Assembly (NCBI GenBank): GCA_004022145.1
Contig: RCNU01000001.1
Origin: Paecilomyces variotii
Taxonomy: Eukaryota
Length of the DNA stretch: 64,000 nt
Reading direction: 5' to 3' (one strand)
Shown here: piece after piece, positions 62,564 to 64,000 of the stretch
Numbering within the stretch: the first letter of the stretch is position 1
How the letters are laid out: the number at the start of each line of letters is the position of its first letter
The notes under the pieces: generated by a model
What the model was told of the DNA's origin: nothing
Seen by the model: only the letters and a program-made list of their open reading frames with translations
Databases searched by the model: none
Position numbers and translations under genes: made by a program

Positions 62564-64000
62564 ATGTCTTCTGACTCTGACACTCCCATCCACCTGCACG
62601 CGGAGCTTCTGCCCAATATTCGACAGCTCACCTTCTACGTTTCTCTTCCTGCAGGTAGCTATATAAGTCAGGATGGTGGCACGCTCAAGCCAGAGATCTC
62701 GCTGTCCGAGTCGCGGCGCGCAGTCACAGTGTCCGTCGGGGGAGAAATGGAGACAATGAAGCTTCCCGCGAGGGTCAGCGAGAGTTCTCGATCAGGCCTG
62801 CGGTTTCCGGCACATGCTTTCTCGGGAAAACCCGCGGCTATTGATGGCACGAACAGGATGGAATTCTCATTCCGTATGCAGGTGGATAAGGACGAAGTTC
62901 CTGGTTTGACAAAGGATGAATTCGTGGATGACTTTATCCCCTGGACGGCAGCGGACATGTCTACATCTGCCCTTGTGCGGTGTCGCGAGTGCAGTGCAGT
63001 GATCTTGGACCCCGGAGAACATACTGAAGGATGGACATGGAAAGATCTTCCTAGTGGGAACTGGGCTGAAATGATGGACTTTTGGCACTGTCACAAGCCA
63101 GATCCACATGAAGGTCATGACCACAAGTCAATAGAGGATTCTAATGCAGTCCTGAAAGGCTATGGAGCCGCGAACCAGATCTCAGCGAGCCCTGGGACGG
63201 TTCTCGTTGATGTTGCTTCATTCCTAGTTGCTGAAGTGGATTGTAATGGTCTGAGAAAGGTAAGAGAAAGGTACCCAGTTGACCATTGTCCTTCACTTCT
63301 ATGGGTCCTCCATGTTCCGTGTACTATGATACCTGAATCTATAACCATGTCATATAGCGCTGCTTGCCGTATTCCGCGTTACATCAAAACTTCTCTGCTT
63401 CCACTATCATACCATGGGCAACAAGAAGGAGGCCTCCTCCACTTCCATGATCTGGCCTCCGATACAATTGCCCGAAATCAATCAATCCATAAATATTCTC
63501 GTTCCAGGTACATCACATCTGTCACAATTTCGAGGTGAGTAGCTGTTGCGAACCACTGGCGGAGTATCCTCTTTGCGGAGATGGATTTCCTCCTTTGGTC
63601 TCTCTGCAGCTTCACGCCTCAGAGATTGTGATGGATTGTTCCTATGGATCGAGTATTTACCGCCTCATCTCTTTCACTGTTGGATTTCTTCTTTTCACAA
63701 CCTGCCCAGAGACATGGGATCCACAGGATTAAGACGAGGTACATGAATGGGCCCGTTAGATGGACACCGCCGGTATATCTGATATAGTAATTATCTCAGC
63801 CATTGATATCTGCAATGAAATTCATGTTTGACTTTAGATCAACTTTGCTTTCCTACAGCTAGTCCATAGAAAGCTAACATTTTTATTTCATAATAGTCAC
63901 AAAATGAGCGTCTTCCGCACACTGGAAACGCTAGGACCCGAGTCTACGTAGAATGTGAAGCCTGTGGTGCAACAATAGGCACGGAAGACGTCACTGCTAA
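62564..64000 (+). CDS. HECT_2 / ubiquitin-conjugating enzyme E2-binding protein (Ipa1/UBE3D-like), 3' end beyond the window
   Basis: LHAELLPNIRQ, PWTAADM, CRECS and WKDLPSGNWAEMMDFWHCHKP. The intron spans 63260-63896. Exon 2 resumes SQNERL...VECEACGATIG. Confidence 0.88.
63412..63702 (+). ncRNA. Intronic box H/ACA guide RNA, snR81-like (predicted guide for U2 snRNA Psi42); 3' end uncertain
   Basis: Lower stem TGGGCAA/TTGCCCG and upper stem GGAGGCC/GGCCTCC enclose pocket strands CAAGAA and GATACAA, complementary to U2 GUAUC-UG-UUCUU. Box H AAATCA (63475-80) lies 14 nt from the pocket apex. A long second hairpin and a candidate ACA at 63697 follow. Confidence 0.8.

What the first reader, a model, noticed from the sequence alone, without database searches (positions are those of the whole stretch)
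63412..63480. Hidden H/ACA guide RNA for U2 snRNA Psi42 (snR81-like) inside the ipa1/HECT_2 intron
Seen: this intron is 637 nt, while most introns traced in the window are 45-135 nt. It contains a two-stem hairpin: 63415-21 TGGGCAA pairs with 63468-74 TTGCCCG, and 63428-34 GGAGGCC pairs with 63454-60 GGCCTCC. The internal loop is CAAGAA / GATACAA, followed at once by an ANANNA box (AAATCA). Known: the U2 branch-site region reads GUGUAGUAUCUGUUCUU, yeast Psi42 is guided by the 5' pocket of snR81, and Psi lies 14-16 nt from box H. Inference: GAUAC pairs with U2 GUAUC (37-41) and AAGAA with UUCUU (44-48), leaving U42-G43 unpaired at 14-nt spacing. This is a likely unannotated, intron-hosted snR81 counterpart in a gene whose yeast relative is linked to mRNA 3' processing. 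The ORF track mistranslates it as protein (GQQEGG...SDTIAR).
Basis: partly seen in the sequence, partly recalled or inferred. Interest (0 to 1): 0.88.

Follow-up and report, generated by a model that had tools for sequence, protein, structure and literature searches.

The report
Intron-hosted H/ACA guide RNA for U2
The long intron of a ubiquitin-ligase-like gene in this mould encodes a conserved small guide RNA that most likely directs a pseudouridine into the branch-site-binding part of U2 spliceosomal RNA, filling a gap in what is known for filamentous fungi.

Summary
It is the 5' hairpin of an RNA of about 334 nt (63413-63746, + strand) inside the 637-nt intron of a HECT_2 gene.

- **Conservation:** A covariance model of the hairpin plus box H finds it in the same intron, on the same strand, in 77 of 80 orthologous loci from metagenomes. 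The other 3 contigs end before it.
- **Spread:** These loci include Penicillium-, Alternaria- and Sordariales-like fungi.
- **Guide signature:** The pocket strands (AAGAA / GAUAC) do not vary, while both stems covary.
- **Known match:** The pocket equals that of the Drosophila scaRNA that restores U2 Psi42 in snr81-deleted yeast.

- **Architecture:** The RNA has three hairpins, not two. A box-less middle hairpin follows box H.
- **3' hairpin:** It runs 63662-63740 and ends in the conserved ACA at 63741-43. Its pocket best fits 18S rRNA, not the 25S site of snR81.
- **Family:** Rfam's models do not recognise the RNA, so it is a functional counterpart of snR81, not a shown homologue.

The RNA ends, Cbf5 binding and the pseudouridine itself remain untested. 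I class it as a new member of a known kind.

The parts
62564..63259 (+). Exon 1 of the host gene (HECT_2 / UBE3D-Ipa1-like), ending in phase 0 with ...LRK
   Evidence: Pfam PF09814 HECT_2 at E 2.9e-50. It is 96% identical to a Paecilomyces variotii protein. The exon junction is seen in orthologous proteins.
63260..63896 (+). Host intron, 637 nt (GTAAGA ... AATAG)
   Evidence: Sequence. Orthologous proteins P0002 and P0003 join LRK|SQNE. Exon 2 translates as SQNERLPHTGN....
63413..63746 (+). Predicted H/ACA RNA (about 334 nt): HP1, box H, HP2, HP3, ACA and a 3-nt tail. The ends are inferred, not mapped.
   Evidence: The constrained minimum-energy fold gives three hairpins at -123.4 kcal/mol. 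Orthologues align from HP1 to a shared ACA column. Against a 2.5%-divergent contig there are 3 differences in 334 nt here, versus 16 in 303 nt of flanking intron (Fisher p 0.0016).
63415..63474 (+). HP1, the hairpin of the finding. Lower stem 63415-21/63468-74; 5' pocket strand CAAGAA 63422-27; upper stem 63428-34/63454-60; 3' pocket strand GATACAA 63461-67.
   Evidence: In alignment A2, 11 of 14 pairs show compensatory changes and 0 of 500 shuffles reach the observed values. GATAC is invariant in 33 of 33 sequences. Model R1 scores 72.8 bits here (the window was in the seed). The Rfam RF02667 alignment shows an identical pocket.
63475..63480 (+). Box H (AAATCA, ANANNA)
   Evidence: The first and third A are invariant in A2. 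The box lies 14 nt from the top of the 3' pocket strand.
63490..63659 (+). HP2, a long box-less hairpin between box H and HP3. Its conserved apical element is TATCCTC...GATGGAT at 63565-63586.
   Evidence: Fold. A loose pattern for the apical motif matches 53 of 76 orthologous stretches. HP2 is about 100 nt shorter in most orthologues. All three differences in the divergent contig fall in its lower stem and break predicted pairs.
63662..63740 (+). HP3, the 3'-terminal hairpin. Lower stem 63662-70/63732-40 with an A63667.C63735 mismatch; 5' pocket strand CTTTCA(C) 63671-77; upper stem 63677-83/63721-26; 3' pocket strand GATTA 63727-31.
   Evidence: Fold. Model R2 was built without the window and hits 63661-63746 at 32.3 bits, E 3e-4. 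In A6, 11 of 12 pairs are compensatory. RNAalifold predicts 13 pairs, 11 of them compensatory. The pocket fits 18S ...UAAUC-UU-GUGAAAC... with 11 bp.
63741..63743 (+). Box ACA, 14 nt from the top of the HP3 3' pocket strand. The predicted 3' end is 63746.
   Evidence: ACA occupies one alignment column in 35 of 36 distinct orthologues. The ACA at 63697-99, which I considered first, is not conserved.
63508..63534 (+). 27-nt 'micro-exon' (VHHICHNFE) present in one public P. variotii gene model. It lies inside HP2.
   Evidence: P0001 carries the 9 residues, while P0002, P0003, P0005 and P0007 do not. It is probably a gene-prediction artefact; this was not tested with spliced reads.
63897..64000 (+). 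Start of host exon 2, cut by the end of the window
   Evidence: Translation SQNERLPHTGNARTRVYVECEACGATIGTEDVTA matches P0001-P0003.

Best explanation

**5' hairpin.** Its pocket pairs with U2 snRNA. GAUAC pairs with U2 GUAUC, and AAGAA pairs with U2 UUCUU. This leaves U-G unpaired 14 nt from box H, so Cbf5 would isomerise the uridine equivalent to yeast U2 U42.

**3' hairpin.** It lies 14 nt from box ACA and probably guides a second pseudouridine in 18S rRNA, at one of the two U's of AAUC-UU-GUGAAAC, about 281 nt from the 18S 3' end.

**Middle hairpin.** A third, box-less hairpin sits in the hinge. Its role is unknown.

**Shown:** the structure, the boxes, the spacing, the covariation, the pocket invariance and the conserved intron position across three classes of Pezizomycotina.

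**Inferred:** processing from the intron, the RNA ends, protein binding and both modifications.
For: Anatomy
- Two stems, pocket and ANANNA are as described.
- The whole-RNA fold gives three hairpins.

HP1 across orthologues
- The host protein alignment A1 retrieved 80 orthologous loci from metagenomes.
- Model R1 (HP1 plus box H) hits the window and 69 of the 80 loci at E <= 1.8e-8. It hits 8 more weakly (E 0.018-0.12) at the same place.
- The other 3 contigs end 23-78 nt after exon 1.
- All 77 hits start 23-173 nt (median 72) after the exon-1 match, on the gene's strand.
- In A2 (33 sequences), 11 of 14 pairs carry compensatory changes. 83.1% of cells are paired against 72.3% when shuffled, 0 of 500 shuffles reach this, and slid controls give 35-43%.
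- RNAalifold independently finds the lower stem; 5 of its 6 pairs are compensatory.
- GATAC is invariant and AAGAA is at least 90% conserved.

Link to U2
- The best Rfam match in the region is RF02667, the Drosophila scaRNA PsiU2-38.40.42 (22.3 bits, E 0.19). The pocket strands are identical: ACAAGAA / GAUACAAU.
- That RNA restores Psi42 in snr81-deleted yeast (PMC3884663).
- The U2 stretch GUAUCUGU..UUUUCA follows from the guide sequences printed in PMC5473140.
- The 10 bp formed exceed the 8-bp minimum reported in PMC6049503.

3' end
- ACA aligns in 35 of 36 distinct orthologues.
- HP3 covaries.
- R2, built without the window, finds window 63661-63746 (E 3e-4) and 36 of 80 loci at E <= 7.4e-4.

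HP3 target
- The 18S motif lies in eukaryotic SSU rRNA.
- It gives at least 8 bp with 25 of 35 distinct HP3 pockets. It is the best or tied-best of 891 uridines examined in 20 of the 35.

Constraint
- A 2.5%-divergent contig differs at 3 of 334 positions in the RNA against 16 of 303 in the rest of the intron (p 0.0016).

Taxonomic spread
- The window's host protein is 96% identical to a Paecilomyces variotii protein.
- L005 is 98% identical to a Penicillium protein.
- L030 is 97% identical to Alternaria.
- L074 is 61% identical to Podospora and 56% to Neurospora.

RNA library
- Run X14 holds a 304-nt contig covering 63422-63706.
Against: - No match reaches any Rfam gathering score. RF02667 scores 22.3 bits against a cut-off of 88, with its 3' hairpin deleted from the alignment.
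- This species' own U2 and rRNAs were not available.
- A scan for U2 in viral contigs gave only 3 chance matches.
- The U2 duplex is short (5 + 5 bp) and A-U rich.
- The extra middle hairpin is not part of the canonical hairpin-hinge-hairpin-tail plan.
- Some orthologues have AGAUUGA rather than a strict ANANNA.
- The X14 contig stops at 63706 with adapter letters, 40 nt short of the predicted 3' end, and begins at 63422. Contigs cannot show ends or strand, and DNA can be present in RNA libraries.
- R1's seed included the window and 32 of the loci it then found.
- The 16-sequence HP3 seed was picked by my own parser for clean stems.
- The HP3 fit to 18S needs the closing C-G pair of the upper stem to open, or three unpaired nucleotides.
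- The HP3 fit fails in the Alternaria-like clade and in L001-L004.
- Only 18S model positions 584-1831, ITS, 5.8S and LSU positions 1-700 were scanned.
- One public gene model places a coding micro-exon inside HP2.
Confidence: 0.82

Rival explanations
1. It is a genuine H/ACA snoRNA, but HP1 acts on a substrate other than U2 (an rRNA or another RNA carrying GUAUC-UN-UUCUU), or HP1 is an inactive structural hairpin and only HP3 guides.
For: - The species' U2 was never examined.
- The Neurospora survey lists Nc ACA8 (192 nt) as a single guide for 18S-Psi1509 through its ACA pocket and predicted no snRNA targets (PMC2780460).
- Most of the LSU rRNA was not available to scan.
Against: - The pocket is invariant across three fungal classes while the stems drift, which an inactive hairpin would not explain.
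- The same pocket in the Drosophila RNA acts on yeast U2 U42.
- No site with 8 or more pairs rich in Watson-Crick pairs exists in the rRNA parts available. The best are 7-9 wobble-rich pairs in U-rich stretches, some of them in the ITS.
Confidence: 0.1
2. It is a conserved cis-acting intronic RNA structure that regulates splicing or expression of the HECT_2 host gene, and no stable trans-acting RNA is produced.
For: - The element keeps a strictly conserved position in one intron of one gene.
- The RNA-library contigs laid do not delimit a mature RNA.
- No spliced joint across the intron was seen in the four runs laid.
Against: A splicing element would not need any of these:
- Box H and box ACA, each 14 nt from an invariant internal loop.
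- Single-stranded loops complementary to U2 and to 18S.
- Two independently covarying H/ACA-type hairpins.

Host introns are also the usual home of snoRNAs in fungi (PMC2780460).
Confidence: 0.05
3. It is a chance hairpin in a long intron.
For: The motif pair alone can arise by chance: 4 of 100 shuffles of the window had one.
Against: - 77 of 80 orthologous loci carry it at the same place.
- The stems covary.
- Divergence is lower than in the rest of the intron.
Confidence: 0.01

Closest known systems
S. cerevisiae snR81 (box H/ACA; 5' pocket guides U2 Psi42, 3' pocket guides 25S Psi1051)
   Same: The 5' hairpin pocket followed by box H targets the same U2 uridine, leaving U42-G43 unpaired. 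It is also a dual guide for one snRNA and one rRNA.
   Different: - No Rfam model for it matches.
- snR81 has two hairpins; this RNA has three.
- snR81's 3' pocket pairs 9 + 3 bp with 25S (PMC6049503). HP3 here best fits 18S with about 5 + 6 bp.
- This RNA is intronic. That snR81 is an independent gene is recalled, not tested.
- A fungus-wide survey found the snR81 family only in Saccharomyces (PMC5824354).
Drosophila scaRNA:PsiU2-38.40.42 (Rfam RF02667)
   Same: The 5' hairpin pocket strands and the box H context are identical in the Rfam alignment. That RNA rescues yeast Psi42 (PMC3884663).
   Different: - The score is 22.3 bits against a gathering score of 88.
- Its 3' hairpin, which guides Psi38/40, has no counterpart here.
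- It is a Cajal-body RNA of an animal.
Vertebrate SCARNA4/ACA26 and non-eutherian SCARNA15
   Same: They guide the equivalent U2 Psi41 and rescue yeast Psi42 (PMC5733568).
   Different: They are different RNAs with other second targets.
S. pombe pugU2-43/44 (SPNCRNA.1709)
   Same: It is a fungal H/ACA guide for the U2 branch-site region, found by searching for the pocket sequence (PMC5473140).
   Different: - It targets the two next uridines through a 3' pocket (ACAGAUAC / UGAAAA).
- It lies downstream of RPC10, not in an intron.
Neurospora crassa Nc ACA8 (192 nt, 18S-Psi1509 via the ACA pocket) or Nc ACA9 (201 nt, orphan, intronic)
   Same: - The size class is similar; orthologues here are 193-253 nt.
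- Nc ACA8's predicted 18S site is compatible with the HP3 target, which lies 281 nt from the 18S 3' end.
- A Sordariales-like locus (L074) carries the RNA.
   Different: - Identity could not be tested. The sequences are in GenBank and in supplements that I could not see.
- Nc ACA8 is listed as intergenic, and no snRNA target was assigned to either RNA.

Membership tests
Eukaryotic box H/ACA guide RNA | Hairpin-hinge-hairpin-tail architecture | tested here: met
   A 5' hairpin, a hinge with box H, a 3'-terminal hairpin and a tail are all present. An additional box-less hairpin sits in the hinge, which is a deviation.
Eukaryotic box H/ACA guide RNA | Box H (ANANNA) immediately 3' of the 5' hairpin | tested here: met
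   AAATCA lies at 63475-80. The first and third A are invariant in 33 of 33 sequences. Some orthologues read AGAUUGA.
Eukaryotic box H/ACA guide RNA | Box ACA directly after the 3' hairpin, 3 nt from the 3' end | tested here: inconclusive
   ACA at 63741-43 follows HP3 after 1 nt and aligns in 35 of 36 orthologues. The 3' end itself was not mapped; the only RNA-library contig stops at 63706.
Eukaryotic box H/ACA guide RNA | Pocket top lies 14-16 nt from box H or box ACA | tested here: met
   63461 to 63475 is 14 nt, and 63727 to 63741 is 14 nt.
Eukaryotic box H/ACA guide RNA | Bipartite complementarity of at least 8 bp around an unpaired U-N in a stable RNA | tested here: inconclusive
   HP1 forms 5 + 5 bp with the U2 sequence deduced from PMC5473140. 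HP3 forms 11 bp with 18S taken from contaminant rDNA loci. The species' own U2 and 18S were not available.
Eukaryotic box H/ACA guide RNA | Covarying stems flanking conserved single-stranded guide strands | tested here: met
   HP1: 11 of 14 pairs compensatory. HP3: 11 of 12 and 14 of 15 on the model-fitted alignment.
Eukaryotic box H/ACA guide RNA | Association with Cbf5, Nop10, Gar1 and Nhp2, and accumulation as a discrete RNA | not testable with these tools
   There is only a 304-nt contig in one RNA library.
snR81 family | Recognised by the family's covariance model | tested here: not met
   All 4227 Rfam families were scanned at E <= 10 on 63150-64000 and on the L064 orthologue. No snR81 match was listed.
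snR81 family | 5' pocket guides U2 Psi42 | tested here: inconclusive
   The pocket geometry and complementarity fit. The modification itself was not assayed.
snR81 family | 3' pocket guides 25S Psi1051 (9 + 3 bp) | tested here: inconclusive
   The HP3 pocket best fits 18S. LSU rRNA beyond its first 700 nt could not be scanned.
Rfam RF02667 scaRNA PsiU2-38.40.42 | Score at or above the gathering cut-off of 88 bits, with both hairpins aligned | tested here: not met
   The score is 22.3 bits, E 0.19. The 56-nt 3' hairpin of the model is replaced by 5 nt.

The most novel reading that the evidence does not exclude
The box-less middle hairpin is a fungal targeting or assembly signal. Its apical element (AYCCUC...GAYGGRU) is conserved in sequence. 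Similar conserved UGG-containing apical elements occur in HP1 and HP3. On this reading the signal lets one H/ACA RNP reach both a nucleoplasmic substrate (U2) and a nucleolar one (18S). It would be a functional analogue of the metazoan CAB box in organisms where none is known. The association with one intron of the Ipa1/UBE3D-like gene, held across Pezizomycotina, would then couple guide supply to that gene's expression.
Probability: 0.1. Interest if true: 0.75.

Novelty: new member of a known kind. Interest (0 to 1): 0.55.

Why it matters
[quoted passage not shown] Its guide is known in S. cerevisiae, Drosophila and vertebrates.

For filamentous fungi, the papers I read give none:
- The fungus-wide snoRNA survey found the snR81 family only in Saccharomyces (PMC5824354).
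- The Neurospora survey predicted no pseudouridine guide for any snRNA (PMC2780460).
- The Aspergillus fumigatus screen cloned no H/ACA RNA at all (PMC2377427).

This locus supplies a strong candidate that is conserved from Eurotiales to Pleosporales and Sordariales, always in the same host intron. That makes the modification directly testable in moulds. It also corrects gene models that translate part of the RNA.

Tried and rejected
- **Wrong ACA first.** I took ACA 63697-99 as the box because the X14 contig ends at 63706. The 3' hairpin then had no proper base, and orthologues showed the conserved ACA is 63741-43.
- **Wrong lower stem.** A lower stem 63497-63503/63733-39 was considered and dropped in favour of the local, covarying stem 63662-70/63732-40.
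- **No genome.** The window's genome and the metagenome records behind the loci are not held, so the species' U2 and rRNA could not be fetched.
- **U2 scan.** A scan of viral contigs for a U2 motif gave 3 chance hits in phage-like contigs and no U2.
- **Poor alignments.**
  - Fixed 95-nt windows before the ACA aligned poorly (A4).
  - RNAalifold on a raw MAFFT alignment of whole 3' domains found almost nothing.
  - The window row misaligned in A5.
- **Strict parser.** The strict HP3 parser failed for 10 of 36 sequences.
- **Uncovered parts in the laid runs.** X14 and X13 cover nothing outside 63422-63706 and 63512-63733, X2 covers nothing after 63813, and no spliced joint was seen. Per the tool's own caution, none of this can be used as evidence.
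- **Other 18S sites.** Sites that tie for some HP3 pockets (offset -252, G-U rich; a GGAUU-UA-UGAAAG site in one organism) were judged weaker.
- **5.8S site.** The 5.8S site GAAUC-UU-UGAAC gives only 4 + 4 bp.
- **Earlier findings.** The scan's earlier-findings index held nothing for this place or sequence.
- **Literature searches for prior reports.** Supplements of PMC5824354 and PMC2780460, which hold the family sequences, were not seen and may already contain this RNA under another name.
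Full report
**Observation.**
- The lower stem is 63415-21 TGGGCAA with 63468-74 TTGCCCG (six Watson-Crick pairs and one G-U).
- The upper stem is 63428-34 GGAGGCC with 63454-60 GGCCTCC (seven pairs).
- The internal loop is CAAGAA / GATACAA.
- AAATCA lies at 63475-80, 14 nt after the first nucleotide of the 3' pocket strand.
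- ViennaRNA recovers this hairpin as the minimum-energy fold.
- The motif pair CAAGAA-N20-50-GATACAA occurs once in the window against 0.04 expected, before the stems and the box are counted.

**Host gene.**
- Exon 1 (62564-63259) is a HECT_2 domain (PF09814, E 2.9e-50).
- Its best database relative is a Paecilomyces variotii protein at 96% identity.
- Orthologous proteins join ...CNGLRK directly to SQNE..., and 63897 onward translates as SQNERLPHTGN.... The intron is therefore 63260-63896, 637 nt.
- The ORF that reads through the hairpin is not conserved coding sequence.
- One public gene model (P0001) inserts nine residues that correspond to 63508-63534. Four orthologues lack them.

**Rfam.**
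- No family reaches its gathering score anywhere in the window.
- At E <= 10 the best match in 63150-64000 is RF02667, the Drosophila scaRNA PsiU2-38.40.42 (22.3 bits against a cut-off of 88; E 0.19).
- The alignment is informative. The consensus pocket ACAAGAA ... GAUACAAU and the box H region are matched letter for letter. The stems differ in a compensated way, and the model's 3' hairpin is deleted.
- According to the passages I read in PMC3884663, that RNA restores Psi42 in an snr81-deleted yeast.
- PMC5733568 reports the same rescue for Xenopus SCARNA15 and for human and Xenopus SCARNA4.

**Orthologous introns.** No genome is held for the window. I therefore aligned the exon-1 protein with 25 relatives (A1) and used the alignment to fetch loci from metagenome contigs.
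- 195 stretches encoded a relative, and the best 80 were kept.
- A pattern scan plus a stem filter found the hairpin just after exon 1 in 46 of the 80 loci and in the window, giving 36 distinct sequences.
- I aligned 33 of the 36, dropping L027, L037 and L041 as near-duplicates (A2).
- GATAC is invariant, AAGAA is at least 90% conserved, and the first and third A of box H are invariant.
- The lower stem changes as GGGCAA/TTGCCC, GGGCGC/GCGCCC, GGATGG/CCATCC, GGGTAT/ATACCC, GGGGTG/CACCCC and CGGCAA/TTGCCG.
- RNAalifold on its own predicts the lower stem, with compensatory changes in 5 of its 6 pairs.
- For the two-stem structure, 11 of 14 pairs have changes on both sides. 83.1% of cells pair against 72.3% after shuffling, 0 of 500 shuffles reach the observed values, and sliding the partner gives 35-43%.

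**Model search for HP1.** A covariance model built from A2 (R1) was run over the window and all 80 loci.
- It hits the window and 69 loci at E <= 1.8e-8.
- It hits 8 further loci weakly (E 0.018-0.12) at the same position.
- One other weak hit appears elsewhere (L035 103-170, E 0.57).
- The 3 loci without a hit (L009, L066, L079) end 36, 23 and 78 nt after exon 1.
- All 77 hits are on the gene's strand and begin 23-173 nt (median 72) after the exon-1 match.
- The seed sequences match the model by construction. The other 37 strong hits and the 8 weak ones do not.

**Which fungi.**
- L005 is 98% identical to a Penicillium canescens protein.
- L030 is 97% identical to Alternaria proteins.
- L074 is closest to Sordariales: 61% to Podospora and 56% to Neurospora crassa.
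- With the Paecilomyces-like window, the element therefore spans Eurotiomycetes, Dothideomycetes and Sordariomycetes.
- Other loci have only moderate identity to named proteins, and I do not assign them.

**The rest of the RNA.** My first guess for box ACA (63697-99) was wrong. Aligning 345 nt from each orthologue puts an ACA in one column in 35 of 36 sequences (L052 has AAA there). In the window this is 63741-43 (...GGATTAAGACGAGGT ACA TGA).
- Most orthologues are 193-253 nt from HP1 to ACA+3. The window and L001 are 337 and 335 nt as extracted, with a few flanking nucleotides included.
- Folding individual orthologues and the window with both boxes kept single-stranded (-123.4 kcal/mol) gives three hairpins: HP1, a middle hairpin HP2, and a 3'-terminal hairpin HP3 ending 1 nt before ACA.
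- In the window, HP3 is 63662-63740:
  - Lower stem 63662-70/63732-40, with one A.C mismatch. The nearest relative L001 has G-C there.
  - 5' pocket strand CUUUCA(C).
  - Upper stem 63677-83/63721-26.
  - 3' pocket strand GAUUA.
  - 14 nt from the pocket top to ACA.

**HP3 statistics.** A tolerant parser gave clean boundaries for 17 of the 36 distinct sequences. The 16 other than the window align well (A6).
- 11 of 12 pairs are compensatory, and 0 of 500 shuffles reach the observed value on four of five measures (26 of 500 on the fifth). Slid controls give 29-49% paired against 85.2%.
- RNAalifold predicts 13 pairs, 11 of them compensatory.
- This seed was chosen by a parser that rewards pairing, which biases it. 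The model built from it (R2) nevertheless finds the window, which was not in the seed, at 63661-63746 (32.3 bits, E 3e-4).
- R2 also finds 36 of 80 loci at E <= 7.4e-4 and 10 more weakly (E 0.057-0.53). All are downstream of HP1 on the same strand, and there are no hits elsewhere.
- 34 loci have no HP3 hit at E <= 1. Some are truncated and some have a divergent 3' hairpin (for example the L033/L039/L059 group).
- On the model-fitted alignment, 14 of 15 pairs are compensatory.

**Targets.** For HP1 I could not obtain this fungus's U2.
- PMC5473140 prints the conserved guide strands used to find the S. pombe U2 guide (ACAGATAC and TGAAAA). Their complements give the U2 stretch GUAUCUGU..UUUUCA.
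- Against it, HP1 pairs GAUAC with GUAUC and AAGAA with UUCUU, leaving U-G unpaired.
- The minimum reported for activity is 8 bp (PMC6049503).
- In the rRNA pieces available, HP1 has no comparable site.

For HP3 the invariant strands UUUCA(C/U) and GAU(U/A) predict a target ...AAUC-U-N-(G)UGAAA.
- I recalled such a motif in 18S rRNA and searched for it in the prokaryote genome collection, finding 21 stretches.
- 8 of the 17 stretches I scanned are eukaryotic SSU rRNA contaminants by Rfam. All 8 show ...GGUAAUCUUGUGAAACUC... about 281 nt from the 18S 3' end.
- With 35 distinct HP3 sequences, this site gives at least 8 bp in 25. It is the best or tied-best of 891 uridines in 20. The window forms 5 + 6 bp.
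- The fit needs the closing C-G of the upper stem to open, or three unpaired nucleotides. PMC6049503 reports that up to four are tolerated.
- The fit fails in the Alternaria-like clade (GUUUA) and in L001-L004.
- Only 18S model positions 584-1831, ITS, 5.8S and LSU positions 1-700 were available.
- I therefore hold the 18S assignment at roughly even odds.

**Constraint and RNA libraries.** Four coded runs were laid on 62900-64000.
- A contig of run X8 spans the whole stretch and differs at 28 positions plus one deletion.
- Three differences lie in 63413-63746 (63490, 63631, 63654).
- Sixteen lie in the remaining 303 nt of the intron (Fisher p 0.0016).
- The three all break predicted pairs in the lower, window-specific part of HP2. 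None touches HP1, the boxes, the HP2 apex or HP3.
- Run X14, an RNA library, has one 304-nt contig that covers 63422-63706, with adapter letters directly after 63706.
- Contigs cannot give ends, strand or level, and DNA may be present, so this is only weak support for accumulation of the RNA.

**HP2.**
- The middle hairpin has no box after it and no pocket.
- Its apex carries AYCCUC ... GAYGGRU, found with a loose pattern in 53 of 76 stretches. The second pair shows U-A/C-G alternation.
- In the window and in L001 the hairpin is about 100 nt longer than elsewhere.
- I have no tested explanation for it.

**What is known.**
- The fungus-wide survey (PMC5824354; passages read) states that the snR81 family was found only in Saccharomyces.
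- The Neurospora survey (PMC2780460) predicted no pseudouridine guide for snRNAs. It lists Nc ACA8 (192 nt, 18S-Psi1509 by the ACA pocket, no homologues, intergenic) and Nc ACA9 (201 nt, orphan, intronic). Either could be this RNA, but the sequences and supplements were not available to me.
- The A. fumigatus screen (PMC2377427) cloned no H/ACA RNA.
- PMC5473140 says that no U2 guide was known in S. pombe before pugU2-43/44.
- Searches found no report of a U2 Psi42 guide in filamentous fungi.
- Rfam does not recognise the Alternaria-like orthologue either.

**Verdict.** The finding is the 5' hairpin of a conserved, intron-encoded, three-hairpin H/ACA RNA. It most likely guides the U42-equivalent pseudouridine of U2 and probably a second one in 18S rRNA. 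It works like snR81's 5' domain, but it is not shown to be a member of the snR81 family. I rate it a new member of a known kind. My confidence is about 0.8 that it is a functional H/ACA guide for U2.

Noticed in passing
window 63508-63534: One public Paecilomyces variotii gene model (P0001) contains a 9-residue micro-exon, VHHICHNFE, that maps here, inside HP2 of the RNA. Four orthologous proteins lack it, so it is probably a gene-prediction artefact caused by the long intron.
   Followed up: partly
window 63565-63586; orthologous loci between box H and HP3: The apex of the box-less middle hairpin carries a conserved AYCCUC...GAYGGRU element. A loose pattern matches 53 of 76 stretches, with U-A/C-G alternation at one pair. 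Its function is unknown.
   Followed up: partly
window 63435-63453; alignment A2 columns 47-56: The apical loop of HP1 holds a conserved YRUGG(C) element (CCAUGG in many orthologues, CCAUGA in the window). Similar (A/U)UGGG elements occur near the apex of HP3.
   Followed up: no
L001-L004 (1548-1622 in L001); L010, L011, L030, L037: The nearest metagenome relative keeps HP1, box H and ACA, but its HP3 5' pocket strand lacks UUUCA. The Alternaria-like clade has GUUUA instead of GAUUA in the 3' strand. The predicted 18S guide function may therefore have been lost or changed in some lineages.
   Followed up: partly
L082, L085, L086, L087, L088, L089, L095, L099: Eight short contigs filed in bacterial genome assemblies are eukaryotic rDNA (SSU, 5.8S and LSU by Rfam). 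They are contaminants in those assemblies.
   Followed up: partly
window 63819-63948 (- strand): There is a weak antisense match to SCARNA24 (18.2 bits against a cut-off of 70, E 4.7) across the 3' splice site. I judged it to be chance.
   Followed up: no
loci L013, L024, L028, L048, L053, L077 and others, just 3' of the ACA: In many orthologues a branch-site-like CTGAY/CTAAC and the 3' splice site follow the ACA within about 10-60 nt. In the window the RNA ends 150 nt before the 3' splice site.
   Followed up: no
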